Source: a virus
Lineage: Duplodnaviria > Heunggongvirae > Uroviricota > Caudoviricetes
Length of the DNA stretch: 21,296 nt
Direction: 5' to 3' (one strand)
IMG/VR virus record: IMGVR_UViG_2695420380_000006
Shown here: positions 1-21,296 of the stretch, in pieces
Layout of the letters: every line of letters starts with the position of its first letter
Numbering within the stretch: position 1 is the stretch's first letter
The notes under the pieces: generated by a model
Database searches by the model: none
What the model saw: only the letters and a program-made list of their open reading frames with translations
Told to the model about the DNA's origin: nothing
Program-made: the position numbers and the translations under genes

Positions 1-319
1 TACGCCGGACCACCGTTCCGCCGACCAGACTCTGTAGATCTTCCGCCATCCCGGTGACCATACCGTACAGGTTAGAAACCATCAGCGTGGGGCGCGTACT
101 GGTGCCTTTGCCATTCAGTTCAAAACCACTCCCCTGAATGGGATACGGCTGATACTGTCGCCCCTGCCAGGTGACCGGCTCACCTTTTTCGTTCTGCTCA
201 TTACAGAAAAAATAACGTTCACCACCGACCTCTGTCAGATCGATTTCCCAGAGCACCACGCTGGCCGACTGCTCCGCACGGGTGCATTCATTCAGTGTTT
301 CCTGCCGGATATCCTGCAT
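1..319 (-). CDS. L: Minor tail protein L (lambda gpL-like), partial; 3' end runs off the left edge of the window
   Basis: Minus-strand translation from the ATG at 319-317 reads MQDIRQETLNECTRAEQSASVVLWEIDLTEVGGERYFFCNEQNEKGEPVTWQGRQYQPYPIQGSGFELNGKG..., matching the lambda gpL N-terminus as I recall it. The start overlaps the M stop (TGATG). Not in the ORF track because the frame has no stop inside the window. Confidence 0.8.
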   Translation of the reverse strand, partial: MQDIRQETLNECTRAEQSASVVLWEIDLTEVGGERYFFCNEQNEKGEPVTWQGRQYQPYPIQGSGFELNGKGTSTRPTLMVSNLYGMVTGMAEDLQSLVGGTVVRR

Positions 320-648
320 CAGTTCACCACCTGTTCAAACTCTGCGCTGAACTCAACACGCAGCATACTGACCCGCGACGACCATTTTGCGCAGGTCACC
401 TTTATCTGCCGCCACTCATAAGGCGGCGTCCACAGAAAGGCTTTCCAGCCCCCGTGCTCTTCCAGAAACGACTCCAGTACCATGGCCTCCTCACGGGGGA
501 CAGAAAGCGTCACGCTGTACGTTTTCAGGTTGGCATTCAGCCCGGCAGGCGCTCGCTGGGAATAGCCATCACCAAAGCGCACCTTTCTTACAGAAGGGGC
601 CGAAGCCACATCCATACCGGGTTTCACTTTCCAGCGGAAGGTTTTCAT
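319..648 (-). CDS. M: Minor tail protein M (lambda gpM-like)
   Basis: 109-aa ORF (MKTFRWKVKPGMDVASAPSVRKVRFGDGYSQ...) of gpM size, sitting between H and L in lambda order; its ATG overlaps the H stop (ATGA). Confidence 0.85.
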   Translation of the reverse strand: MKTFRWKVKPGMDVASAPSVRKVRFGDGYSQRAPAGLNANLKTYSVTLSVPREEAMVLESFLEEHGGWKAFLWTPPYEWRQIKVTCAKWSSRVSMLRVEFSAEFEQVVN

Positions 649-3247
649 CGTCCACCTCCGGAGAACAGGCCACCATCACGCATCTGTGTCTGAATTTCAT
701 CACGGGCACCCTTGCGGGCCATGTCATACACGGCCTTCATCATCTGTGGACCTGGCAGACCATTCGTACCGTCGTTCTGAATCACCACGTGATTGTTCTG
801 ATTAAAATTAATGCCTTCAGCCCGCCGCATCTGCGCCGGACTTCCGGCACCGCCCACATAACCACCTTCCGCATAGCCGCGCATCAGCCGGTAGAGATTC
901 CCCACGCCAATCCGGCTGGTTGCCTCCTTCGTGAAGACAAATTCACCACGGTGAACAATCCCCGCTGGCTCATATTTGCCGCCGGTTCCCGTAAATCCCC
1001 CGGTTGCAAAATGGAATTTCGCCGCAGCGGCCTGAATGGCTGTACCACCTGACGCGGATGCGCCGCCACCAACAGCCCCGNNNNNNNNNNNGCGCTGCCG
1101 ATACTCCCGACTATCCCCACCATCGCCTGCTTCAGAAAAATCTCTGTNNNNNNNNNNNNNNNNATCTCTGTCAGCATGGACAGCACAGAACGGGTGAAAC
1201 CACGCCAGTTCTGTTCGCTGCCGATCAGCATCGCTGCCATATTCTGTGCAATACCGTCAAAGGTCTGCGTGGCCGCGTTTTTAACCTGCGAAAAACTGTC
1301 CGTCGCACTTTCCGCCCACTCGCCCCAGCCGGACTTCATCCCGGCCATCCAGCTTCCACGAAGCTGCTCCTCCGCAGACCAGGTGTTCTTCAGTGCAGAT
1401 GTGGCCTTCGCCAGCGCAGCCGGATTATCACCGTACACCTCACGAAGGCGCTGCTCTTCCGACTCCCGCTGCGCCTGACGGTCGGTGAGTCCGCGGGCTT
1501 TTGCGCTGATTGCCGCCTGCTTCGCGCTCTGCTGCTGTTCAAACCGCGCCGCCTGCTGTGCCAGCTCATTCAGCCGTTTCTGGTGTTCAATCTTGTCGCC
1601 CAGCTCAGCCAGCTGGCGTTTGTACTCCAGCGTTTCTTTCTCATGGGCCAGCAGGGATTTTTCCTGCTCAGATAACTGCCGTTTCGTGGCGGCCTCTTTC
1701 AGGACCACATACTGATTTTCCGCTTTCCATAAATCACGGCGCTGCTGGCTGATTTTTTCATTCGCACCGCTGTGCTTCTCCAGCGTCCTGAGCTCAGTTT
1801 CAAGCGCCAGCAGGGCTGCATGCGCCTGGTCTTCCTGGCGCTCACCGGCAGACACCTTCACACCGGACGGCTTTTTCTGCGTCGACTCATAATCCTTTTT
1901 TGCCGACGCCATCAGCGTGTTGTAATCCGCCTGCAGGATTTTCCCGTCTTTCAGGGCCTTATTCAGCTCTTCCTGCCGGGCGGTATATTTCTCCAGTGGC
2001 GTCAGCAGGCGCTCATACGCCTTCTGCGCCTCTCCGGTATACTTCAGCTGTGACGACTCACGCTCAGCCCTGTCCCTTGCCGCCAGTTCACCGGCTTTTT
2101 CCATATCCGACTGCAGCGTTGCCGCTGCCAGACCCAGACGGGCATTTTCCCGGTCATCCCATGCGCCCTGAAGGTTGGCCCGGAAAGAGGAGGTTTTACC
2201 GCGGCGCTGGCTCCGACTCTGGTACCACTGCCATTTTTTATCCGCCTCATCAAATGCCTTCTGCGCACTGGCGAGCATATCCGCTGAGGATTCCGGACGA
2301 CCGATATCCAGAATGGCATCCCACATCGATTTGAATGCCTTCCCTGTTTTATCCGCCCAGGTCTCCAGTGTTCCCATGTTTTCTTTCAGGCGACGGGTCT
2401 GCTCATCAAAGCCTTTCGTGGCGATATCGTTCGCCGCCTGCAATGCCCCGGCCTCGTCTCCGGAACGCTGCAGCTGTGCAACATACGCAATCTGCTCTGC
2501 CGTCACGTTACGGAACTGGCGCGCCATCGCCATCAGTCCCGACGTCGGGTCAGTGGTCAGCTTCCCGAAGGCTTCAGCGACTTTATCCACCTCCACACCG
2601 GATGCAGACGCAAAACGCGCGACACTCTGGTTGATGGCATCAAACTGTTCACCACCACGCACACCGGCATTCACCAGGGCTGCCAGTGACTCTCTCGCCT
2701 GGTTAAACGTCAGCCCTGCTGCCTGCCCGGCTCTTGAGAGAGTCAGCATACGATCGGCAGTCAGTCCGGACTGATTACCGGAAAGAACCAGGGTTTTATT
2801 AAACGCTGAAAGCGTGGAATCTCCCTGGTACCAGGCGTACACCAGTGCACCTGTCGCCACCGCCAGCGAGGTGACCCCGACCATCGGCAGGGTGATCGCA
2901 TCGGCAAGCCCCCTGAACATGGGGATCATCCCGCCGAAGGAGTCCTTCACCTGACCGCCCTGTTGCAGCAGGATCAGCCAGGGATTCTGACCACCGGCAA
3001 GCTGCGTGGCGATATCCGTAAACTGTGCGGGCAGGGTTCGCATGGCCGCTTTATACTGCCCGACGGAAATCCCGGCTTTTTGTGCAGCCAGCGCCTGGCG
3101 GCTCAGGCCCTGTTCAACAGCACTGGCGGTTTTTCTGGCGTCGGTATCCAGACCTGAAAAATGACGCCTTACCCGGCTCATCTGCTCATCGAAACGGACA
3201 GCATCCAGACTCAGGTCAATAACAAGATCACCAACCGGCTGGGACAT
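645..3247 (-). CDS. H: Tail tape measure protein H (copy 1), interrupted by N runs at 1081-1091 and 1148-1163
   Basis: Track ORF 884-3247 (MSQPVGDLVIDLSLDAVRFDEQM...) is the H body. Track ORF 645-905 (...GNLYRLMRGYAEGGYVG...DEIQTQMRDGGLFSGGGR) is the H C-terminus in another frame, and that frame is open back to 1080 (…GGKYEPAGIVHRGEFVFTKEATSRIGVGNLYRL). The apparent frameshift coincides with the two N runs, so it is very likely artefactual. Confidence 0.8.
925..1080. repeat. 156-bp segment of H copy 1 that is identical to 6876-7031 in H copy 2
   Basis: By base-by-base reading the two segments are identical, whereas adjacent homologous H sequence (1092-1147 vs 7043-7098) shows several mismatches. 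Confidence 0.7.
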
Positions 3248-5854: not shown

Positions 5855-5929
5855 TTATCGTCGCCGGTTAACTGCGGGTGGTTGCCCACGGTTGAGCCAG
5901 AGATAACAGCTGCCCCCGTCATCCGGAGA
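5855..5929 (-). pseudogene. FII: FII-like (head-tail joining) gene remnant; only the last ~24 codons remain, 5' part replaced by the IS element
   Basis: Minus-strand translation of 5929-5855 gives ...SPDDGGSCYLWLNRGQPPAVNRRR*, which parallels the C-terminus of the intact FII at 11734-12087 (...SPDDGGSCHLWLGRGVPPAVNRRR*). The reading frame runs directly into the IS terminus at 5930. Confidence 0.7.
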
Positions 5930-6874
5930 TGTCAGCGCCAGTGATATAAGACGGTAATTCGCCATTTGGATTGTCCGCTCCACCCAACATGTTGTTTCCT
6001 TAAGGTTCTCACACCAGAAAGGACATCAACATGCTGAGCAGAGAGGACTTTTACATGATAAAGCAAATGCGCCAGCAGGGCGCGTACATCGTCGATATTG
6101 CGACTCAGATTGGTTGCTCTGAACGGACGGTCAGACGCTACCTCAAATACCCTGAACCGCCAGCCAGAAAGACCCGCCACAAAATGGTTAAGCTGAAACC
6201 GTTTATGGATTACATCGACATGCGCCTGGCAGAGAATGTCTGGAATAGCGAGGTTATCTTCGCGGAGATTAAGGCAATGGGTTATACGGGCGGACGTTCC
6301 ATGCTGCGTTACTACATCCAGCCCAAACGTAAAATGCGTCCGTCAAAAAGAACAGTTCGCTTCGAAACTCAGCCTGGATACCAGCTCCAGCATGACTGGG
6401 GCGAAGTTGAGGTGGAGGTTGCCGGGCAACGGTGCAAAGTTAACTTGGCGGTTAATACGCTGGGGTTCTCCCGCAGCTTCCATGTCTTCGCCGCACCAAA
6501 ACAGGATGCTGAGCATACCTACGAATCACTGGTTCGCGCCTTCCGCTACTTCGGTGGTTGTGTGAAAACGGTGCTGGTTGATAACCAGAAGGCTGCGGTG
6601 CTGAAGAATAACAACGGGAAAGTCGTGTTCAACTCCGGATTCCTGTTGCTGGCTGACCACTATAACTTCCTGCCACGGGCATGCCGTCCACGCAGGGCCA
6701 GAACAAAAGGTAAGGTTGAGCGGATGGTGAAATACCTCAAGGAGAACTTCTTCGTCCGGTACCGCAGGTTCGACAGCTTCACTCATGTCAATCAACAACT
6801 GGAGCAATGGATAGCCGATGTGGCTGACAAACGGGAGCTTCGCCAGTTCAAAGAAACGCCGGAACAGCGCTTCG
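5930..6874 (+). mobile_element. IS21-family (IS100-like) insertion sequence, 5' fragment only (left terminus plus truncated istA); no istB or right terminus
   Basis: Begins TGTCAGCGCCAGTG... immediately after the FII remnant. Encodes the first ~281 codons of an IstA-type transposase and ends at the ambiguous base 6875, where H-homologous sequence starts. IS100-like assignment is from recalled IstA sequence, not a search. Confidence 0.7.
6031..6874 (+). pseudogene. istA: IS21-family transposase IstA, 3'-truncated
   Basis: Track ORF 6031-6885 (MLSREDFYMIKQMRQQGAYIVDIATQIGCSERTVRRYLKY...QFKETPEQRF) has an HTH N-terminus and an IS21/IS100-type IstA body. Full-length IstA is about 340 aa as I recall it, and here the frame is cut at the 6875 junction. 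Confidence 0.75.
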
Positions 6875-6875
6875 N

Positions 6876-7031
6876 TCCTTCGTGAAGACAAATTCACCAC
6901 GGTGAACAATCCCCGCTGGCTCATATTTGCCGCCGGTTCCCGTAAATCCCCCGGTTGCAAAATGGAATTTCGCCGCAGCGGCCTGAATGGCTGTACCACC
7001 TGACGCGGATGCGCCGCCACCAACAGCCCCG
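6876..7031. repeat. 156-bp segment of H copy 2 that is identical to 925-1080; begins right after the ambiguous junction base
   Basis: See 925-1080. Confidence 0.7.
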
Positions 7032-9157
7032 CCAATGGCGCTGCCGATACTCCCGACAATCCCCACCATTGCCTGCTTAAGCAGAATTTCTGTCATCATG
7101 GACAGCACGGAGCGGGTGAAGCTGCGCCAGTTCTGTTCACTGCCGGTCAGCATCGCCGCCATATTCTGTGCAATACCATCAAAGGTCTGCGTGGCTGCAC
7201 TTTTAACCTGTGACATACTGTCCGTGGCGCTCTCTTCCCACTCACTCCAGCCGGACTTCAGGCCTGCCATCCAGCTCCCGCGAAGCTGGTCTTCAGCCGC
7301 CCAGGTCTTTTTCTGCTCTGACATGACGTTATTCAGCGCCAGAGGATTATCGCCATACTGTTCCTTCAGGCGCTGTTCCGTGGCTTCCCGCGCTGCCTGC
7401 CGGTCAGTCAGCCCCCGGTTTTTCGCATCAATGGCTGCCCGTTTTGCCCGTTGCTGCTGTGCGAATTTATCCGCCTGCTGCGCCAGCGCATTCAGGTGCT
7501 CCTGATACGTAACCTTGTCACCAAGTGCAGCCAGCTGGCGTTTGTACTCCAGCGTCTCGTCTTTATGCGCCAGCAGGGATTTCTCCTGTGCGGACAGCTG
7601 GCGACGTTGTGCCGCCTCCTCCAGTACCGCGAACTGACTTTCTGCCTTCCACAAATCCCGGCGCTGCTGGCTGATTTTCTCATTCGCTCCGGCATGCTTC
7701 TCCAGCGTCCGGAGTTCTGCCTGAAGCGTCAGCAGGGCCGCATGAGCACTGTCTTCCTGACGATCGCCCGCATACACCTTCACGCCGGACTGTTTCGGCT
7801 TTTTCAGCGTCGCTTCATAATCCTTTTTCGCCGCCGCCATCAGCGTGTTGTAATCTGCCTGCAGGATTTTTCCGTCTTTCAGTGCCTTGTTCAGTTCTTC
7901 CTGACGGGCGGTATATTTCTCCAGCGGCGTCTGCAGCCGTTCGTAAGCCTTCTGCGCCTCTTCGGTATATTTCAGCCGTGACGCTTCGGTATCGCTCTGC
8001 TGCTGCGCTTTTTTGTCCTGTTGACGCTGTTGATCTACCCTCTTTTGGGCTGCATCCCGCTCCAGGCGTTTTTTTTCACGATCATCCCAGTAACGCGCCC
8101 GTGCTTCATCGTTAACGAAATAATCATCCTTGCGCAGATTCCAGATGTCGTCTGCTTTCTTAAACGCAGCCTCTGCCTTAATCAGCATCTCCTGCGCGGT
8201 ATTAGGACGACCAATATCCAGCACCGCATCCCACATGGATTTGAATGCACGTGCAGTCCTGTCTGCCCAGGTCTCCAGCGTGCCCATGTTCTCTTTCAGG
8301 CGGCGGGTCTGGTCATCAAACCCTTTCGTTGCGGCCTCGTTCGCCGCCTGCAATGCCCCGGCTTCATCGCCGGAACGCTGCAACTGAGCAACATACGCAA
8401 TCTGCTCCGCCGTCACGTTATGGAACTGGCGTGCCATCGCCGTCAGCCCCGACGTCGGGTCTGTGGTCAGCTTCCCGAAGGCTTCAGCGACCTTGTCCAC
8501 CTCCACGCCGGATGCAGAGGAGAAACGCGCCACACTCTGGCTGATGGACGCAATCTGAGCCTCACCGCTTACCCCCGCCTTAACCAGTGCGCTGAGTGAC
8601 TCGCTGGTCTGGTTAAACGTCAGCCCTGCCGCCTGCCCGGCTCTGGACAGGACCAGCATACGATCTGCCGTCAGTCCCGCCTGATTACCGGAAAGGACCA
8701 GCGTTTTGTTGAAATCGGACAGGGTTGAGTTGCCCTGATACCAGGCATACGCCAGCGCACCGGTCGCCACCGCCAGCGAGGTGGCCCCCACCATCGGCAG
8801 GGTGATCGCGCCGGCAAGCCCCCTGAACATGGGGATCATCCCGCCGAAGGAGTCCTTAACCTGACCACCCTGTTGCAGCAGGATCAGCCAGGGATTCTGC
8901 CCCCCTGCAAGCTGCGTGGCCACGTCGGTGAACTGTGCAGGCAGCATACGCATGGCGGCTTTATACTGCCCGACGGAAATCCCCGCTTTCTGTGCAGCCA
9001 GCGCCTGTCGGCTCAGCGACTGTTCAACGACTGCCGCTGTTTTTTTCGCATCACTTTCCGTACCGGAAAAATGACGCCTGACTCTGGCCATCTGCTCGTC
9101 AAATCTGGCCGCATCCAGACTCAAATCAACGACCAGATCGCCTACCGGTTCAGCCAT
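6876..9157 (-). CDS. H: Tail tape measure protein H (copy 2, lambda-like), 3'-truncated at the 6875 junction
   Basis: Track ORF 6848-9157 (MAEPVGDLVVDLSLDAARFDEQMARVRRHFSG...GGKYEPAGIVHRGEFVFTK) follows lambda gpH as I recall it up to the junction. The last ~90 codons present in copy 1 (645-924) are missing. Confidence 0.8.
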
Positions 9158-9988
9158 ACCGGACTCCTCCTGCGATCCCTTCTGATACTGTCATCAGCAT
9201 TACGTCATCCTCCGTCATGTCCGCCACATCCGGGGAAGCGGGGATAACTTCATTCCCGTCCGGGCCAAAGCGGACACCTCCGGCAAGCCCTGCCGCTTTC
9301 TGCATCAGCACATCATCTTCAGGCTCTTCGTCAGCCTCGCGCCGGTTCAGCAGACTGAAATCCAGCGGATGCATCTCCGGATCGCTGAAAAACAGGCTGA
9401 GCACGGTGTACGTCAGCCCGGAAAAGTGCATATCCAGCAGAACATCATGAAAATAATGGGTACTGTAAAAGCGGTGCCAGTCGGCATACTCCGTGGATGA
9501 CATCCCGGCAAGCATGGCGCGCCAGTCGGGTCGCCCCATCTCACGCGCCAGTTTCAGGGCAAAACTCAGCTCACCGTCGAACACTTTCCCGCAGAAACAG
9601 GCTCTGCAGGCCCGGCGTCCTCTGCCTGTTCAGGAGCATCATTCACCACAAACTCATACATACCGGACAGCCGGTACACCACGTTTTCAGCATGAGAAAT
9701 TGCCTCTGTGGGCCAGGTGGTAAGCACTTCCTGCTCAATCTGTTTAACGGCTTCATTCATGGACGGCATCTGCGTCTTCTTCGGATGGTTATGCCACAGG
9801 GACATCGCAACCACAAAAGCGCCGGTTCTGATGGCGTCTTCCACAGTAAACTTCCGGTTGCTGTCTGACTCCGCCTGTTCTGCCTGCCGTTTCATCAGGT
9901 CGAGATGCTCAATACGCTGCAGGGCTGACAGTTCAGAAAGCGTGACGGTCACACCGTTATGTTCAAATGATTCGGTTTTCAGGAACAT
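9150..9988 (-). CDS. T: Tail assembly chaperone G-T fusion (copy 2), made by -1 programmed frameshift at 9584-9590
   Basis: G frame 9566-9988, T frame track ORF 9150-9584; plus-strand ctttccc at 9584-9590 is minus-strand GGGAAAG. Confidence 0.75.
9566..9988 (-). CDS. G: Tail assembly chaperone G (copy 2)
   Basis: 140-aa ORF MFLKTESFEHNGVTVTLSELSALQRIEHLDLMKR..., lambda gpG-like. Confidence 0.85.
   Translation of the reverse strand: MFLKTESFEHNGVTVTLSELSALQRIEHLDLMKRQAEQAESDSNRKFTVEDAIRTGAFVVAMSLWHNHPKKTQMPSMNEAVKQIEQEVLTTWPTEAISHAENVVYRLSGMYEFVVNDAPEQAEDAGPAEPVSAGKCSTVS
9584..9590 (-). promoter_or_regulatory. Slippery heptanucleotide G GGA AAG for the G to G-T -1 frameshift (copy 2)
   Basis: Same heptamer and same spacing to the G stop as in copy 1. 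Confidence 0.75.
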
Positions 9989-10003
9989 CGCTGACTCTCC
10001 GGA

Positions 10004-10744
10004 TTAACTGGCGGTGACGTTGATTTCTGCAACCGCAGCAAACTCACCATTACCAGATACGACCGGAATGTTGACCTTGCCTGCAGCAACACCTTTCACG
10101 GTGATGGTCATACCACTGACCGACACGGTGGCTTTTGTTTTATCCGCAGACACCGCACGGAAGCTCTTGTCGGTTGCGCCATCCGGCTGGAATGCCACGG
10201 TCAGCGTGGTGCTCTGCCCTTTCACTACGGAAGCACTGGCGGGTGTCACCGTCATGCCGGTCGTCGCCGTCACCGTGCTGCGATCTTCTGCCATCGACGG
10301 ACGTCCCACATTGGTGACCTTCACCGTGCGGGTAATCACCTCCTTCGCCGTCACCGCCTTACCGATACTGCTGACCCAGCCACGGAACACATCGACCGTG
10401 CCGTTCGGGAAGCGGATTTTATAGGCACGGGTATCACCTTCATTAAACCACGCCAGCAGCGCCTGCTGCCCCTGCTCTCCGGGCATCCACGCCAGCGTGA
10501 AGCTGGTATCTCCGGCAGATTTCTGCCCCTGCCCGGTCGCAGTCCAGTCTGCATCTTCATCATCGAGATAGCTGTCGTCATAGGACTCAGCGGTCAGTTC
10601 GCCGGGCGTCAGGTCTTTAACTTTTGCCAGACGCGACCAGTCAACGTCTGAAAGCGGGTTCGCATAAGGGTCACCGCTCCCCTTATAAACCCACAGGGTG
10701 GTCCCGGCACCTTTCACCGGCATTGTAGGATTTGGTACAGGCAT
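10004..10744 (-). CDS. V: Major tail tube protein V (copy 2, lambda-like)
   Basis: Track ORF 10004-10774; the likely true start is the internal [36 protein letters not shown]..., which matches the lambda gpV N-terminus. Confidence 0.85.
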
Positions 10745-10751
10745 AGCGTCC

Positions 10752-11147
10752 TCACATTTCATAGATAATGACATAAGTCAGATCGGCTGAACTCCACAGG
10801 CCCGCATCATCGTCGCGCCGGTAGTCATAGCCGCTGGCCACCATACTGGTGATCAAATCTGACAGTGCCGGGATATCGCTCATCACCGGATAAATCCGGG
10901 ACTCCATCCACGAATCCAGCTCTGAATCCGGCACCTGAGCAGGCAGGAAAACTTCAATATGCAGCTCCGCCTGCCAGGTATCGCTGTCCAGCTCTTCGCC
11001 CGTGTATTCAGCGCCGGTGAGATAAACGGCAATTGCCGGAAAATCTTCCTCATCAAAAACAGCGGGGCGACCATCAAAAAGCGTCGCCCCGGTGTCATGC
11101 TTCTCCAGTGCATCCAGTACGGCTGCACGGAGTTCAGTATGTTTCAT
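10752..11147 (-). CDS. U: Tail tube terminator protein U (copy 2)
   Basis: 131-aa [46 protein letters not shown]..., lambda gpU-like. Confidence 0.85.
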
Positions 11148-11722
11148 CGCTTTATTACCATTCTCAGTTGATGCTGCAGCGCATAGCCCAGCTCTTTCGG
11201 AAGACGTTCACGCCGTATCCGTTCAATATTCTGTTTAAACGCCGTGGTCAGCGGCACCGCCATCGGGATTTTCACCACATCAATGGGGTAACGGTTTTTC
11301 CCGGCCACACGCTGCATAACATGCCACCGGCCGTTTTTCAGTTGCTGAATAAACGCGCCGGGAATACGACGGTTACCCACCACAAGCACGCTGCCGCCAC
11401 CTTTCAGGGATGAACGCTGCCCCTTTTTATGACGCCTGCGGCGGGACAGGACAACCCGCGCATTACCCAGCTTGATTACGGGCAAATCCCCCCGGTTAAC
11501 TTTGATTCTGGCCTGCGGATTTTTGACCGTGGCCCTTTTCAGCCTGGCCCTTTCCTTTACCAGTTTCCGGCGTACCTTTGTCTCACGGGCAACCTGTGAC
11601 GCAGACTGCGATATCGCGGATGAAGCAACGCGGTTAATGGCCATTGCGGCGGCACCGGGCACCGCCGTTTTGCTGATACGGCTGAGGTTTTCAACGGCCT
11701 GCTCAAGACCTTTTATGGCCAT
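11144..11722 (-). CDS. Z: Tail completion protein Z (copy 2)
   Basis: 192-aa ORF MAIKGLEQAVENLSRISKTAVPGAAAMAINRVA..., lambda gpZ-like. Confidence 0.85.
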   Translation of the reverse strand: MAIKGLEQAVENLSRISKTAVPGAAAMAINRVASSAISQSASQVARETKVRRKLVKERARLKRATVKNPQARIKVNRGDLPVIKLGNARVVLSRRRRHKKGQRSSLKGGGSVLVVGNRRIPGAFIQQLKNGRWHVMQRVAGKNRYPIDVVKIPMAVPLTTAFKQNIERIRRERLPKELGYALQHQLRMVIKR

Positions 11723-11733
11723 ACATCCCCCTT

Positions 11734-12087
11734 TCAGCGGCGACGGTTAACGGCAGGCGGTACGCCCCGTCCAAGCCAGAGATGACAACTTCCGCCATCA
11801 TCCGGCGAAACCCGATCTACCCAGAAATTTTCCTCACCGATGGTCAGCGTGTCTCCACGCCGCAGCTGCCGCACCTCATCAGTCCGGACAAACAGGGACG
11901 GGCTGGAGCCTTCAACGCGCACGCCCTGTCCGGCATAGCTGATATTTTCAGGGTCATCAAAAACACCACGTATCACCGCACCTGACTGCTCACCGGATGT
12001 CATGGTGGCTGACGTTCCCATGTACCCGCGTATCGTTTCATCGGCGCGGGCAATGGCAGCATCGAACAGGTTATCGAAATCAGCCAC
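11734..12087 (-). CDS. FII: Head-tail joining protein FII
   Basis: 117-aa ORF MADFDNLFDAAIARADETIRGYMGTSATMTSGEQSGAVIRGVFDDPENISYAGQGVRVEGS..., lambda gpFII-like. Confidence 0.85.
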   Translation of the reverse strand: MADFDNLFDAAIARADETIRGYMGTSATMTSGEQSGAVIRGVFDDPENISYAGQGVRVEGSSPSLFVRTDEVRQLRRGDTLTIGEENFWVDRVSPDDGGSCHLWLGRGVPPAVNRRR

Positions 12088-12098
12088 AGCGCCTCCCG

Positions 12099-12497
12099 TT
12101 ATTGCATTCTGGCCAGGCCGCGCTCTGTCATTTCGGCTGCCACACCGGCAGAGACACGAAACGCCGTTCCCGGCAGCACAAATGCCACAGGTTTATCCCG
12201 CGTGGCGTGAAGTGCATCAGTATGCAGCGTCACCAGTGCCACGACCGTGACCAGTTCAGCCGTATCCTGAATCACGGTATCCGGCTGCGCTGATACCACC
12301 TCATTTTCATGCCCGGTCAGCACATTTTCCCGGCTGAGAGGGGTGTCCTGACCGGCAGTTTCATCCGTGTCATCAAGCTCTTCTTCCAGCTCTGCCACAC
12401 GAAGCGCCAGTTCTTCTTTCGTTCCCGTCAAACTGACATCGCGGTTCAATTGCTCACCCAGCTCCTGAAGACGGGCAATCAGTTCATCTTTCGTCAT
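12099..12497 (-). CDS. FI: DNA-packaging / head assembly protein FI
   Basis: Track ORF 12099-12536 has a 13-aa N-terminal extension. The internal ATG (MTKDELIARLQELGEQLNRDVSLTGTKEELALRVAEL...) is preceded by GGAGGA with 5-nt spacing and gives a lambda gpFI-like 132-aa product. Confidence 0.8.
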   Translation of the reverse strand: MTKDELIARLQELGEQLNRDVSLTGTKEELALRVAELEEELDDTDETAGQDTPLSRENVLTGHENEVVSAQPDTVIQDTAELVTVVALVTLHTDALHATRDKPVAFVLPGTAFRVSAGVAAEMTERGLARMQ

Positions 12498-12518
12498 GAA
12501 CTCCTCCACAGAGAGAAA

Positions 12519-12536
12519 ATGGCCCCGAAGGGCCAT
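12519..12536 (-). terminator. Intercistronic stem-loop between E and FI: AUGGCCC-UUCG-GGGCCAU on the late mRNA, followed by a U/C-rich tract
   Basis: Perfect 7-bp GC-rich inverted repeat with a UUCG tetraloop, starting 2 nt after the E stop codon and ahead of the FI ribosome-binding site. Confidence 0.5.
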
Positions 12537-12538
12537 GA

Positions 12539-13564
12539 TTACGCCAGTTGAACGGACACGAACTCATCAGGATCAGCCAGCAGCATCAGCGGTGCTGACT
12601 GAATCATGGTGAACTCACGCGCCGGATCGCCGGTGGTCACCCAGTTTTTCGGGTAACGGGCAGAGGCGTTAATGCCTTCGCGCTGTGCGTCCGCATCCTG
12701 AATGCAGCCATAGGTGCGCAGACCGCGAGCCTGAGTGTTCCCCAGCACCATCGTGTTGTCCGGCAGGAAGTTCTTTTTGACGCCGTTTTCCACGTACTGT
12801 CCGGAATACACGACGATGGCCACATCGCCATACATTCCCTTATAGGACACCGCTTTGCCCAGGTCTTTTACCGCTGTCTCCAGCTCGGAATGAGAGCCGC
12901 GACGGGTATCCAGCTTCTCCTTGACGGCTTTGAAGGAACGGAACAGCGCCCAGCCTTTCGGGTCAAACACGATGATATTCACCACACCGCTGGCGTTCAG
13001 CGCGTAGGCTTCGATATCGTCGGTCGGGTCATACGTGGACTTGTCACGCTTGCTCCACTCCGTGACGCCGGACTGTGTGATGTTGTTCGCCGCACTGCGG
13101 CCCATATCCACCTCAACCGGATCGAAGGCTTCACCGGTCATGGTGTATTTGCCCTTGAGCACGGCAGAAACTGCCTGCATCTCTTCGACCTGAGCAATGG
13201 CCAGCTCTTCGTCACGCATGTTCTGCATGATGATGCGACGGCGGCGGTAAGCCGGGTCCGCCAGATTCTGCGGATCTTCATCCGGCAGGCGACGCAGGGT
13301 CATCTGCGGATTCACCTCATGCTTGGGTTTGACATATCCCGGCGTAAATTCAGAGGTGGAGCCGCCACGGGAACGGATAACCTCACCGGAAACAATCGGC
13401 GAAACGTACAGCGCCATGTTTACCAGTCCCGGAATTTGTGAGAGATAGACTTTCTCCGTAGTGAAGGGATAGCTCTCACGGAAAAAGAGACGCAGAAACA
13501 GCGGATCAAACTTAAATTTCTGCTCATTTGCCGCCAGCAGCTGGGCGGTTGTGTACATCGACAT
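12539..13564 (-). CDS. E: Major capsid protein E
   Basis: Track ORF 12539-13591; the likely true start is the internal MSMYTTAQLLAANEQKFKFDPLFLRLFFRESYPFTTEKVYLSQ..., lambda gpE-like. The 9-aa upstream extension overlaps the intergenic hairpin and is unlikely to be translated. Confidence 0.9.
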   Translation of the reverse strand: MSMYTTAQLLAANEQKFKFDPLFLRLFFRESYPFTTEKVYLSQIPGLVNMALYVSPIVSGEVIRSRGGSTSEFTPGYVKPKHEVNPQMTLRRLPDEDPQNLADPAYRRRRIIMQNMRDEELAIAQVEEMQAVSAVLKGKYTMTGEAFDPVEVDMGRSAANNITQSGVTEWSKRDKSTYDPTDDIEAYALNASGVVNIIVFDPKGWALFRSFKAVKEKLDTRRGSHSELETAVKDLGKAVSYKGMYGDVAIVVYSGQYVENGVKKNFLPDNTMVLGNTQARGLRTYGCIQDADAQREGINASARYPKNWVTTGDPAREFTMIQSAPLMLLADPDEFVSVQLA

Positions 13565-13577
13565 AAAAAAATCCCGT

Positions 13578-13599
13578 AAAAAAAGCCGCACAGGCGGCC
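13578..13599 (-). terminator. Intercistronic terminator-like hairpin between D and E: GGCCGC-CUGU-GCGGC followed by U7, then ACGGGA-U7 directly before the E start codon
   Basis: GC stem at 13585-13598 with a T-tract at 13578-13584 on the minus strand; a second T7 run lies at 13565-13571 immediately upstream of the E ATG. Confidence 0.5.
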
Positions 13600-13619
13600 T
13601 TTAGTGATGAAGGGTAAAG

Positions 13620-13765
13620 TTAAACGATGCTGATTGCCGTTCCGGCAAACACGGTCCGTTTTTTCGTCTCGTCNNNNNNNNNNCGTCTCGTCGCTGGCAG
13701 CCTCCGGCCAGAGCACATCCTCATAACGGAACGTGCCGGACTTGTAGAACGTCAGTGTGGTGCTG
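13620..13765 (-). CDS. D: Head decoration protein D, visible C-terminal part only; the 5' part lies in the 282-N run and a 10-N run interrupts the last codons
   Basis: Minus-strand translation of the visible sequence gives ...STTLTFYKSGTFRYEDVLWPEAASDET[N run]DETKKRTVFAGTAISIV*, a lambda gpD-like C-terminus with stop at 13620-13622. Confidence 0.75.
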
Positions 13766-14047
13766 NNNNNNNNNNNNNNNNNNNNNNNNNNNNNNNNNNN
13801 NNNNNNNNNNNNNNNNNNNNNNNNNNNNNNNNNNNNNNNNNNNNNNNNNNNNNNNNNNNNNNNNNNNNNNNNNNNNNNNNNNNNNNNNNNNNNNNNNNNN
13901 NNNNNNNNNNNNNNNNNNNNNNNNNNNNNNNNNNNNNNNNNNNNNNNNNNNNNNNNNNNNNNNNNNNNNNNNNNNNNNNNNNNNNNNNNNNNNNNNNNNN
14001 NNNNNNNNNNNNNNNNNNNNNNNNNNNNNNNNNNNNNNNNNNNNNNN

Positions 14048-14434
14048 CCGGGTTACCTGCAGCCAGCGGTGCCGGTGCCCCCTGCATCAGACGATCCAGC
14101 GCAGTGTCACTGCGCGTCTGTGCACTCTGTGGTGCTGCGGCCAGAATACGGCGGGGCGGNNNNNNNNNNNNNNNNNNNNNNNNNNNNNNGTTTCCACGGT
14201 CATACCGGGGGTTTCGGCCAGCACGCGTGCCTGTTCTTCGCGTCCGTGAGCCTCCTCACAGTTGAGGATCCCCATAATGCGACTGTTTTCTGCCGCAACC
14301 GCTGCGGTGATCTGCGCGTTCACGTCCGGCTGCGCCGCGCTGGCGTTCTCGCCCTCCGTCGCTTGCACCACGCCAGTAACGTCAGCCTGCGAAGCAGTGG
14401 CTGAAACAGTTGTTGATTGAGTCTCTTTGGTCAT
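14048..14434 (-). CDS. Nu3: Scaffolding protein Nu3, nested in-frame in the 3' part of C (internal start at 14434); 3' end masked
   Basis: Internal ATG at 14432-14434 preceded by AGGAGG with 4-nt spacing (minus strand CAGGAGGGCGA-ATG-ACC), giving MTKETQSTTVSATASQADVTGVV... In lambda, Nu3 is the in-frame C-terminal segment of C. Confidence 0.6.
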
Positions 14435-15358: not shown

Positions 15359-19071
<3,713 letters not shown>

Positions 19072-19617: not shown

Positions 19618-19796
19618 TGTTCATTCCACGGACAAAAACAGAGAAAGGAAACGACAGAGGCCAAAAAGCCCGTTTTCAGCACCTGTCGTTTCCTTTCTTT
19701 TCAGGGGGTGTTTTAAATAAAAACATTAGGTTACGGCGAAGAAGAACGGAAACGCCTTAAACCGGAAAATTGTCATAAATAGCGAAAACCCGCGCG
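19618..19796 (-). promoter_or_regulatory. cos region: cosB (Nu1 binding / IHF region) plus the cosN-equivalent 12-mer at 19785-19796
   Basis: The minus strand upstream of Nu1 reads ...GGGCGGAAGGCG-CGCGGGTTTTCGCTATTTATGACAATTTTCCGGTTTAAGGCGTTTCCGTTCTTCTTCG..., closely resembling the lambda left end as I recall it. The flank on the other side (19797-19950) resembles the lambda right end. Confidence 0.7.
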
Positions 19797-20005
19797 CCTT
19801 CCGCCCCGTAACCTGTCGGATCGCCGGAAAGGACCCGCAAAATGATAATAATTATCATCTACATGTCACAACGTGCATCTACGCCATCAAACCACGTCAA
19901 ATAATCAATTATGACGCAGGTATCGTATTAATTGATCTGCATCAACTTAACGTAAAAACAACTTCAGACAATACAAATCAGCGACACTGAATACAGGGCA
20001 ACCTC

Positions 20006-20239
20006 ATGTCAACGAAGAACAGAACCCGCAGAACAACAACCCGCAACATCCGCTTTCCTAACCAAATGATTGAACAAATTAACATCGCTCTTGTTCAAAA
20101 AGGGTCCGGGAATTTCTCAGCCTGGGTCATTGAAGCCTGCCGCCGGAGACTGTGCTCAGAAAAAAGAGTTTCGCCTGAAGCAAACAAAGAAAAGAGTGAC
20201 ATTACTGAATTGCTCAGAAAACAGGTTAGACCAGATTGA
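20006..20239 (+). CDS. Small basic prophage protein of unknown function; resembles YlcI/YnfO-type (DUF3950-like) proteins found beside cos in lambdoid prophages
   Basis: 77-aa ORF MSTKNRTRRTTTRNIRFPNQMIEQINIALVQKGSGNFSAWVIEACRRRL..., in AT-rich DNA and oriented opposite to the late operon. Family assignment is from memory, not a search. Confidence 0.55.
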   Translation: MSTKNRTRRTTTRNIRFPNQMIEQINIALVQKGSGNFSAWVIEACRRRLCSEKRVSPEANKEKSDITELLRKQVRPD

Positions 20240-20296
20240 AGCAATTTAGATAATCGTGCAGACTACGCCCCCTCATATCACATGGAAGGTACTACA

Positions 20297-20707
20297 ATGG
20301 CTCAGGTTGCCATTTTTAAACAAATATTCGATAAAGTGCGAAATAATTTAAACTATCACTGGTTTTATTCTGAACTAAAACGTCACAATGTCTCACATTA
20401 CATTTACTATTTAGCCACAGAGAATATTCATCTTGTTCTTGAAAACGATAATACGGTTTTAATAAAAGGACAGGGTAAGGTTGTAAATGTAAGATTTTCA
20501 AAAAATAAATGCCTTATAGAAGCCACCTTAAAAGGATTCAAATCAGGAGAGTTATCATTTTACGAATACAGGAAAAATCTTGCTACAGCAGGGGTTTTCA
20601 GATGGATTACAAATATCCACGAAAACAAAAGGTATTACTATACCTTTGATAATTCATTACTCTTTACTGAGAACATACAGAACACTACACAAATATTTCC
20701 GCACTAA
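20297..20707 (+). CDS. Prophage protein of unknown function; resembles YbcV/YdfO-type (DUF1398-like) proteins
   Basis: Track ORF 20282-20707; the likely start is the internal ATG at 20297 ([31 protein letters not shown]...), preceded by GGAAGG about 8 nt upstream. AT-rich codon usage unlike the structural genes. Confidence 0.55.
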
Positions 20708-20963
20708 ATCATAACGTCCGGTTTCTTCCGTGCCAGAACCGGACTCGCTGGCATGATGAAATATGTGTACCCGGTAACCCCGGTGTGCATCGTTTTTGAT
20801 TATTCCCGCACACTCGCGCAGAAGGAGTTCCCCGTCGGGCTACGGTCTCTGTTAATACGGGAATACGGCGACGATACAGCGCATGATGTGTCAGGCTTGA
20901 ATACCTTTATCCGTTAAAAGGGATATCAGTTAAGTTATCCCGTGTAGGGTATAAGCCATTATC

Positions 20964-20990
20964 AAAGCCACTCTGTAGGAAGTGGCTTTT
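20964..20990 (+). terminator. Candidate intrinsic terminator for plus-strand transcripts
   Basis: Stem AAAGCCACT / AGTGGCTTT with an 8-nt loop, followed by TTTTG, about 260 nt downstream of the 20297-20707 ORF. Confidence 0.45.
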
Positions 20991-20997
20991 GTAATGG

Positions 20998-21025
20998 CAA
21001 TAAAAAGCCCCGCGAATGCGAGGCT
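20998..21025 (-). terminator. Candidate intrinsic terminator for minus-strand transcripts entering from the right edge
   Basis: Minus strand reads AGCCUCGC-AUUC-GCGGGGCU (8-bp stem with one G-U pair) followed by UUUUUAUU, about 33 nt downstream of the candidate stop at 21059-21061. Confidence 0.5.
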
Positions 21026-21058
21026 AAATCCTGGTATTTGTAATGACTGGCTCTTATC

Positions 21059-21296
21059 TCAACGCAGCCCCTTACCGCGCGCAAAATGCTCAATATCAAG
21101 CATCAGCAATGAGATGTTTAATCTGGATTCACTCCAGAAGTGAGCACCACCCTGTCTACAGAGCCAGATGTGAAGGATGATGAGTAAAATTATCGCTATC
21201 ATCGAAGGCATTGCGTCCTGATGTATTCCTGAAGCGTTCTCAGTGCTGTTTGGTCGCGGATAATTCCGTCCCGGATACCGAGAACGTTTCGTCCAG
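21059..21296 (-). CDS. Possible 3' end of an unidentified minus-strand gene running in from the right edge (79 open codons; 5' end outside the window)
   Basis: The frame is open from the window edge to a TGA at 21059-21061 and is followed by the minus-strand terminator. The sequence (…MPSMIAIILLIILHIWLCRQGGAHFWSESRLNISLLMLDIEHFARGKGLR*) is not recognisable, and two other minus frames are also open for 18 and 31 codons from the edge, so the frame choice is uncertain. Confidence 0.25.
   Translation of the reverse strand, partial: WTKRSRYPGRNYPRPNSTENASGIHQDAMPSMIAIILLIILHIWLCRQGGAHFWSESRLNISLLMLDIEHFARGKGLR

What the first reader, a model, noticed from the sequence alone, without database searches (positions are those of the whole stretch)
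925..1080. 156 bp of perfect identity between the two H genes, against a diverged background, ending at an N run on one side and the ambiguous junction base on the other
925-1080 equals 6876-7031 base for base, while the next homologous stretch (1092-1147 vs 7043-7098) already shows about 10% mismatches. The identical block is bounded by the 11-N run at 1081 in copy 1 and begins right at the n at 6875 in copy 2. That fits a repeat collapsed or duplicated by an assembler (the same reads placed twice), or a genuine recombination or gene-conversion tract between the tape-measure genes.
Basis: seen in the sequence. Interest (0 to 1): 0.5.

Follow-up and report, generated by a model that had tools for sequence, protein, structure and literature searches.

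The report
Prophage repeat written twice by assembler
The 156 identical bases are the visible edge of a stretch that two resident lambda-like prophages normally share at the end of their tape-measure genes, and its sharp ends are break points of a short-read draft scaffold, so this is ordinary.

Summary
In detail: 925-1080 equals 6876-7031 exactly. The window is one whole draft scaffold (GCA_001249045.1, CXCT01000069.1) that strings together tail and head genes of two E. coli lambdoid prophages.

Three details need correcting.
- The 11-N run stands for 6 bases (CCAATG), so exact identity really runs 182 nt, with the first difference at 1112/7058.
- The correct register is 1092-1147 against 7038-7093, not 7043-7098.
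- Gene H of copy 1 ends at about 645, not 884.

The "diverged background" lies on one side only. In complete genomes these two prophage types share a near-identical H-3'/M/L module next to H-5'/T/G/V/U/Z at roughly 73-79% identity. Strain NCTC9082 carries both types, with exact runs of 261-387 nt.

Each copy of the block sits at a contig end. The single N at 6875 joins it to the middle of an IS21-like transposase gene, which is a scaffold join and not a biological junction. Other N runs in the scaffold hide contig overlaps of 8 and 9 nt.

Best reading: a real inter-prophage repeat at a known mosaic boundary, written once in full and once as a stub. Whether the two copies are truly 100% identical cannot be settled without reads. 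Interest is low.

The parts
925..1080 (-). Copy 1 of the identical block. It is the right-hand end of contig 1-1080 and encodes a C-terminal stretch of tape-measure protein H (GAVGGGASASGGTAIQAAAAKFHFATGGFTGTGGKYEPAGIVHRGEFVFTK).
   Evidence: Exact match to 6876-7031; translation; 100% identical to complete-genome prophages L004-L006
6876..7031 (-). Copy 2 of the identical block. It forms the first 156 nt of contig 6876-13673 and is the truncated 3' end of the second H gene.
   Evidence: the block and its right flank are continuous with, and identical to, L004-L006 through window-copy-1 position 1400 (about 470 nt), with the first few differences appearing after that
1081..1091 (.). 11-N scaffold gap that stands for 6 nt (CCAATG). 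It shifts the reading frame, so gene callers split H into two pieces.
   Evidence: Alignments with L001-L009; gene-1080 and 884-3247; the corrected ORF is intact
1092..1111 (-). Continuation of the exact identity between the two H genes behind the gap (equals 7038-7057). The first real difference is at 1112/7058.
1148..1171 (.). 16-N run plus an 8-nt direct duplication (ATCTCTGT). This is an undetected contig overlap; the true gap is -8.
   Evidence: Duplication found. With the Ns and the duplicate removed, the sequence matches 160 complete genomes at 99% or better in one ungapped piece.
6875..6875 (.). Single-N scaffold join between an internal point of an IS21-like istA gene and the internal point of gene H. 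It is not an IS end.
   Evidence: The reference IS (L013) continues CGCTGGAGCAGG... past 6874 for about 1.2 kb more
5931..6874 (+). The 5' 944 nt of an IS21-like element: the left inverted repeat TGTCAGCGCC... and istA residues 1-281. It is inserted in the FII-like head-tail joining gene of prophage 1.
   Evidence: Pfam rve/HTH hits; 1 mismatch to L013
645..3247 (-). Tape-measure gene H of prophage 1, which is intact once the two N runs are corrected.
   Evidence: Pfam TMP_2 and Tape_meas_lam_C; corrected ORF of 857 codons; synteny with the annotated CDS in L001
6876..9157 (-). Tape-measure gene H of prophage 2. About 280 nt of its 3' end are missing because the contig ends here.
   Evidence: Pfam TMP_2 and Tape_meas_lam_C; the full-length homologues in L002 and L004 extend further
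1..924 (-). The rest of contig 1-1080: the 3' end of H, gene M, and the 3' part of gene L. In complete genomes this module is shared by both H lineages. It is present only once in this scaffold.
   Evidence: M and L proteins have identical accessions in type-1 and type-2 prophages; L001 vs L002 show 5 mismatches in 924 nt.

Best explanation
The window is a complete short-read draft scaffold that chains pieces of two different lambdoid prophages of E. coli. Both prophages carry a lambda-type tape-measure gene H.

In this phage group the 3' part of H, together with the downstream genes M and L, forms a module that is nearly identical between lineages. The 5' part of H and the genes T, G, V, U and Z differ by 20-27%. 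The 156-bp block lies just inside that shared module, next to the mosaic boundary. The first real difference is at 1112/7058.

Because the module is a repeat within the genome, the assembler broke there. It wrote the repeat once in full (contig 1-1080, chained to prophage 1) and once as a 156-nt stub at the start of prophage 2's contig. The stub is most likely an extension by reads whose mates are anchored in prophage-2-specific sequence. The stub's left end and the single N mark where extension or scaffolding stopped, and the adjoining IS21 fragment is an unresolved or false scaffold join.

Shown: the identity, the draft nature of the record, the gap artefacts, the mosaic pattern in complete genomes, and the non-terminal IS cut. 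Inferred: that both prophages in this strain really carry the block, identical or nearly so, and the exact assembler steps (a Velvet/SSPACE/GapFiller-type pipeline).
For: - The source is the whole record CXCT01000069.1 of GCA_001249045.1, and it has seven N runs.
- Each copy of the block abuts a gap on one side and is continuous on the other.
- The N runs are only estimates and hide overlaps. 16 N plus an 8-nt duplicate equals a gap of -8. 10 N plus a 9-nt duplicate equals -9. 282, 30 and 165 N stand for 256, about 2 and 55 nt. 11 N stand for 6 nt.
- GapFiller closes a gap only when it finds an overlap of at least 10 nt, and it extends contig edges with mate-anchored reads (PMC3446322). The authors of one such pipeline state that SSPACE and GapFiller are greedy and can make false joins (PMC5320598).
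- 6874 is an internal position of the IS21-like element.
- The shared module is seen in complete genomes. L001 (type 1) and L002 (type 2) differ at 5 of 924 nt left of the block and carry identical M and L proteins.
- The long-read genome NCTC9082 holds both types. They share about 1.7 kb at 97-100% identity with exact runs of 387, 324 and 261 nt, and identity then falls to about 70-80%.
- Copy 2's block and its right flank match L004-L006 with no mismatch for about 470 nt, and those loci also continue leftward exactly like window 871-924.
- Natural H genes that join an L004-like block to the prophage-1 variant exist: L011 and L012.
Against: - No reads are available, so the depth over 1-1080 (about 2x would be expected) is unknown.
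- The exact 156-bp haplotype is rare, found in 6 of 3616 complete genomes with a match.
- The closest complete-genome relatives of the prophage-1 right flank (L007-L009) differ from the block at 16-27 of 156 sites.
- No complete genome carries the reconstructed copy-1 junction at 99% or better; the best is 97.9%.
- Contig 1-1080 as a whole matches no complete genome above 98.7%. Copy 1's block could therefore be prophage-2 sequence laid over prophage 1 by bubble-popping or mis-scaffolding.
- It is unexplained why the scaffolder linked the IS fragment to contig 6876 onward.
Confidence: 0.68

Rival explanations
1. Chimeric scaffold. Contig 1-1080 belongs only to prophage 2 and is the true left neighbour of contig 6876 onward, with the 156 bp being their end overlap. 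Prophage 1's own H 3' end, about 10% different and L007-like, lies elsewhere in the assembly. The identity would then be one locus written twice, and the two H genes would not share it.
For: - The block plus copy 2's right flank, and also 871-924, are identical to the single-locus sequence of L004-L006.
- L007-L009, which match 1092-1600 at 99.8%, differ at 16-27 of 156 sites in the block.
- The reconstructed copy-1 junction is absent from 5426 complete genomes at 99% or better.
- The haplotype switch falls exactly at the 11-N gap.
Against: - A de Bruijn or overlap assembler needs a branch in order to break at 1080-1111, which implies that prophage 1 shares at least a k-mer's length of sequence there.
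- Chaining 1-1080 to 1092 onward requires read pairs between them.
- Natural H genes with this kind of junction exist, differing from the window's block at only 2-4 of its 156 sites (L011, L012).
- Correcting the gap gives an intact 857-codon H, though any homologous 3' end would do the same.
Confidence: 0.17
2. Genuine short gene-conversion or recombination tract. The two co-resident H genes were recently homogenised over a discrete tract of about 182 bp, with real ends at about 924/925 and 1111/1112, and the assembler broke at those ends.
For: - The exact run of 182 nt compares with a next-longest run of 46 nt.
- Independent lineages in complete genomes almost never share the exact block: 1-6 mismatches within the common haplogroup, and zero only within one lineage.
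- The haplotype is rare, so two independent copies being identical by descent alone is unlikely.
- The right end of the tract, at 1112, lies in continuous sequence.
Against: - The left end is unobservable because the contig stops at 6876.
- In complete genomes the shared region normally runs on through M and L for more than 1 kb, so a discrete 182-bp tract is not required.
- Short-read assemblers merge near-identical repeat copies, so identity in the file does not prove identity in the genome.
Confidence: 0.12
3. Real rearrangement. An IS21-associated or illegitimate recombination event fused the interior of istA to the interior of H in prophage 2, giving a composite prophage region in the order shown.
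For: - The scaffolder placed the two contigs next to each other with a minimal gap.
- A 5-nt microhomology (CTTCG) occurs at 6870-6874 and 6878-6882.
- The IS21 left-end insertion into FII at about 5931 is genuine.
Against: - The junction is not at an IS terminus.
- A real junction would have been read through without an N.
- Contig 6876 onward begins with the H-specific bases TC before the microhomology, so it is not derived from junction reads.
- A 5-nt match is within chance.
Confidence: 0.03

Closest known systems
Modular mosaicism of lambdoid phages and prophages, meaning sharp transitions between near-identical and diverged modules, including inside genes. This is well documented for E. 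coli prophages; the attribution rests on my own knowledge of the field.
   Same: There is an abrupt change from 100% to about 90% and then about 75% identity within gene H. The H-3'/M/L module is shared between lineages whose H-5'/T/G/V/U/Z differ. The same pattern was reproduced here in complete genomes.
   Different: Only one boundary of the shared segment is visible here (1112). The other is cut off by the end of a contig.
Repeat-boundary artefacts of short-read scaffolds of the Velvet/SSPACE/GapFiller type: residual N runs, small duplications around gaps, and false joins (PMC5320598, PMC3446322).
   Same: - N runs whose lengths disagree with the reference.
- 8- and 9-nt duplications flanking N runs, just under GapFiller's 10-nt closing threshold.
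- A single-N join between unrelated sequences.
- A repeat written at two contig ends.
   Different: The assembler used for this record was not verified. It is inferred from the pattern of gaps and the type of record.
Homologous recombination or gene conversion between co-resident lambdoid prophages, as described for multi-lysogenic E. coli such as O157 (own knowledge).
   Same: Two prophages in one genome carry an identical rare haplotype in a gene that is otherwise diverged.
   Different: The tract's extent and its true identity cannot be shown from a collapsed short-read assembly.

Membership tests
Lambda-type tail tape-measure protein (gpH) | TMP_2 N-terminal domain plus the lambda tape-measure C-terminal domain | tested here: met
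   Both copies hit PF06791 (E = 4e-69 and 5e-70) and PF09718 (E = 2e-15 and 3e-21)
Lambda-type tail tape-measure protein (gpH) | Synteny: G/T chaperone genes upstream, M and L downstream | tested here: met
   Phage_TAC_2 and Phage_tail_T lie upstream of both copies. Phage_min_tail and Phage_tail_L lie downstream of copy 1. For copy 2 the downstream part is missing because the contig ends.
Scaffold-gap artefact (unresolved contig overlap or estimated gap) | N-run length disagrees with homologous complete sequence, or the run is flanked by a short direct duplication | tested here: met
   11 N = 6 nt. 16 N plus an 8-nt duplicate = -8. 10 N plus a 9-nt duplicate = -9. 30 N = about 2 nt. 165 N = 55 nt. 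282 N = 256 nt.
Assembler-collapsed or duplicated repeat | The repeat copies sit at contig ends next to gaps | tested here: met
   Copy 1 ends at the 11-N run, and copy 2 starts right after the single N
Assembler-collapsed or duplicated repeat | About twofold read depth over the collapsed copy, or mixed bases at sites where the copies differ | not testable with these tools
   No reads are available. The record was identified as GCA_001249045.1.
Gene-conversion tract between paralogous genes | Both tract boundaries are visible in continuous sequence in both copies, with diverged flanks on each side | tested here: inconclusive
   The right boundary, at 1112/7058, is seen. The left boundary is unobservable because copy 2 stops at 6876. 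In complete genomes the left side is usually also shared.
IS21-family insertion | Terminal inverted repeat at the junction with the target, followed by istA and istB | tested here: met
   This applies to the left end only. TGTCAGCGCC... starts at about 5929-5931 inside the FII-like gene, and istA has rve/HTH domains with 1 mismatch to an annotated IS21-like element.
IS21-family insertion | The junction at 6874/6876 is the other terminus of the element | tested here: not met
   6874 is 944 nt into an element of about 2.1 kb, and the reference sequence continues with istA

The most novel reading that the evidence does not exclude
The two co-resident prophages really underwent a very recent, short (about 182 bp) gene-conversion event confined to the C-terminal region of their tape-measure genes, with true ends at about 925 and 1111. 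That would give a dated example of micro-scale homogenisation between prophage tail genes within one chromosome.
Probability: 0.12. Interest if true: 0.2.

Novelty: already known. Interest (0 to 1): 0.08.

Why it matters
The value is mainly practical. The finding shows that this record is a scaffold that chains two prophages across unresolved repeats. Three consequences follow for anyone using it:
- Gene order across 1081-1163 and across 6875 should not be trusted.
- Both H gene models are damaged by gaps.
- The apparent IS21::H fusion protein is not real.

Biologically it only re-illustrates the well-known mosaic boundary inside lambdoid tape-measure genes. It opens no new question.

Tried and rejected
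- I searched 5426 complete E. coli genomes for one carrying the same FII::IS21 junction, which would mark a close relative of the source strain. None was found; no match covered 80% or more of the query. An independent long-read version of this genome was therefore not available.
- I searched the reconstructed copy-1 junction. There was no match at 99% or better. I first read this as evidence for a chimera, then weakened that reading after L011 and L012 showed natural near-equivalents.
- I searched contig 1-1080 as a whole. The best match was 98.7%, so it could not be assigned to either H lineage.
- I considered the 5-nt microhomology CTTCG at the 6875 join as a sign of a real deletion junction. 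I rejected this because contig 6876 onward starts with H-specific bases before the microhomology, and 5 nt is within chance.
- A literature search for the accession found nothing.
- The assembler's identity could not be verified. The Velvet/SSPACE/GapFiller attribution is an inference from the pattern of gaps.

Full report
**Observation.** Window 925-1080 and 6876-7031 are identical over 156 nt, and the block occurs nowhere else in the window. The window has seven N runs: 1081-1091, 1148-1163, 6875, 13674-13683, 13766-14047, 14160-14189 and 15391-15555. A look-up of the chimeric ORF at 6031-6885 shows that the window is the entire record CXCT01000069.1 (21,296 bp) of NCBI assembly GCA_001249045.1. 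It is therefore a draft scaffold.

**What the region is.** All phage genes lie on the minus strand.
- Prophage 1 contributes L' (1-319), M (319-648), H (about 645-3247), T, G, V, U, Z (up to 5840) and the 3' remnant of an FII-like gene.
- At about 5929-5931 the left inverted repeat of an IS21-like element begins. Its istA gene runs to 6874.
- After the single N, prophage 2 follows: H from 6876 to 9157 with its 3' end missing, then T, G, V, U, Z, FII, FI, the capsid genes, portal, terminase A and Nu1.
- Both H proteins carry the TMP_2 and lambda tape-measure C-terminal domains.

**Corrections to the finding.**
- Alignment with complete genomes shows that the 11-N run replaces 6 nt, CCAATG. The next 20 nt (1092-1111) are also identical to copy 2 (7038-7057). 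If the hidden bases match, the exact run is 182 nt, with the first difference at 1112/7058.
- The correct register for the next stretch is 1092-1147 against 7038-7093, with 6/56 mismatches.
- The 16-N run at 1148-1163 is flanked by an 8-nt duplication. With the Ns and the duplicate removed, the sequence matches 160 complete genomes at 99% or better in one ungapped piece.
- With both corrections, H of prophage 1 is an intact 857-codon ORF. The apparent stop at 884 is a frame artefact.

**Is the identity more than chance?**
- Against the sequence to its right, yes. The two tail modules are 73-79% identical over 4.9 kb, and the next-longest exact run there is 46 nt.
- Against the population, also yes. 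The exact 156-bp haplotype occurs in only 6 of 3616 complete genomes that have a match.
- Among eleven prophages taken from complete genomes, independent lineages differ by 1-6 sites within the common haplogroup and by 14-27 sites from a second haplogroup. Zero differences occur only within one lineage.

**What lies on the other side.** The block is not an island.
- L001, whose H 5' part is of the prophage-1 type, and L002, of the prophage-2 type, differ at only 5 of 924 nt to the left of the block. They also encode identical M and L proteins.
- The long-read genome NCTC9082 carries both types at different loci. The two share about 1.7 kb (L, M and the H 3' end) at 97-100% identity, with exact runs of 387, 324 and 261 nt. 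Identity then falls to about 70-80%.
- Another complete genome, E275a, holds a pair that does not share this module; its longest exact run is 56 nt. Both situations therefore occur in nature.
- The mosaic boundary in gene H is a recurrent and ordinary feature of these prophages.

**Where the block's haplotype belongs.**
- Copy 2's block and its right flank match L004-L006 with no mismatch through window-copy-1 position 1400, about 470 nt, with a few differences after that. Those loci also continue leftward exactly like window 871-924.
- The right flank of copy 1 (1092-1600) matches L007-L009 at 99.8%, but those loci differ from the block at 16-27 of 156 sites.
- The reconstructed copy-1 junction is not found at 99% or better in any complete genome; the best match is 97.9%.
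- However, the best matches L011 and L012 are natural H genes that join an L004-like block (4 and 2 mismatches) directly to the prophage-1 variant. The copy-1 arrangement is therefore biologically plausible.
- Contig 1-1080 as a whole matches no complete genome above 98.7%.

**Assembly evidence.**
- Each copy of the block is at a contig end.
- The N-run lengths are estimates. 10 N plus a 9-nt duplicate equals -9. 282 N stand for 256 nt, 30 N for about 2 nt, and 165 N for 55 nt.
- Duplications of 8 and 9 nt are just below the 10-nt overlap that GapFiller needs to close a gap. GapFiller extends contig edges base by base, using reads whose mates are anchored in the flank (PMC3446322).
- A widely used pipeline of this kind (Velvet, SSPACE, then 120 GapFiller iterations) is described by its authors as greedy and liable to false joins (PMC5320598). 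That this record came from such a pipeline is my inference.
- Position 6874 is 944 nt into an IS of about 2.1 kb. The reference IS continues with istA, so the single N is a scaffold join and not an IS terminus.

**Explanation.** The most likely reading (0.68) is that both prophages of this strain carry the H-3' segment, identical or nearly so, as part of the shared module. The assembler broke at the module's right boundary. It wrote the module once (1-1080) and also wrote a 156-nt stub of it at the start of prophage 2's contig. The IS join is unresolved or false.

Rivals:
- Contig 1-1080 belongs only to prophage 2, and the 156 bp are a contig-end overlap of a single locus (0.17).
- The block is a genuine discrete conversion tract of about 182 bp (0.12).
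- The IS::H fusion is real (0.03).

Read depth, mate positions and mixed bases in the original reads, or a long-read assembly, would decide between these.

**Novelty and interest.** Mosaic boundaries in lambdoid tail genes and repeat artefacts in short-read scaffolds are both well known. The practical lesson is that the order of this scaffold and its H gene models are unreliable. Interest is low.

Noticed in passing
window 5856-6874: An IS21-like element (1 mismatch in 947 nt to an annotated copy) is inserted in the FII-like head-tail joining gene of prophage 1, with its left inverted repeat at about 5929-5931. None of 5426 complete E. coli genomes has this insertion junction.
   Followed up: yes
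window 6031-6885 (+) and 6848-9157 (-): Gene callers produce a chimeric 284-aa 'IstA' that reads across the single N into H antisense sequence, and an H model that reads into the IS. Both are artefacts of the scaffold join and are present in public protein collections.
   Followed up: partly
window 732-870: The C-terminal part of H has a cassette of about 140 nt with two strongly diverged forms in complete genomes. The L001/L002 form is the one in the window; the L003-L006/L011/L012 form differs at roughly one third of sites. Near-identical sequence flanks the cassette on both sides, so it is a mosaic patch inside the otherwise shared module.
   Followed up: partly
window 1-1080: This contig is a haplotype mosaic: 1-731 is like L002/L004, 732-870 is like L001/L002, and 871-1080 is like L004. 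No complete genome matches it above 98.7%. It could be a natural recombinant or a consensus blended from two collapsed prophage copies.
   Followed up: partly
window 13674-13683, 13766-14047, 14160-14189, 15391-15555: Further N runs lie in the head genes of prophage 2, and their lengths disagree with the homologous complete sequence: -9, 256, about 2 and 55 nt against 10, 282, 30 and 165 N. The first is flanked by a 9-nt duplication, CGTCTCGTC.
   Followed up: yes
L007 (NZ_CP033762.1), equivalent of window 1060-1091: One complete-genome H gene lacks 27 nt in frame in the Gly/Ala-rich stretch that spans the end of the block. This indicates length polymorphism at exactly the place where the scaffold has its 11-N gap.
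   Followed up: no
window 20282-20707 (+): A DUF1398 family gene lies beyond Nu1 at the right end of the scaffold, on the opposite strand to the phage structural genes. The rest of 19700-21296 was not examined.
   Followed up: no
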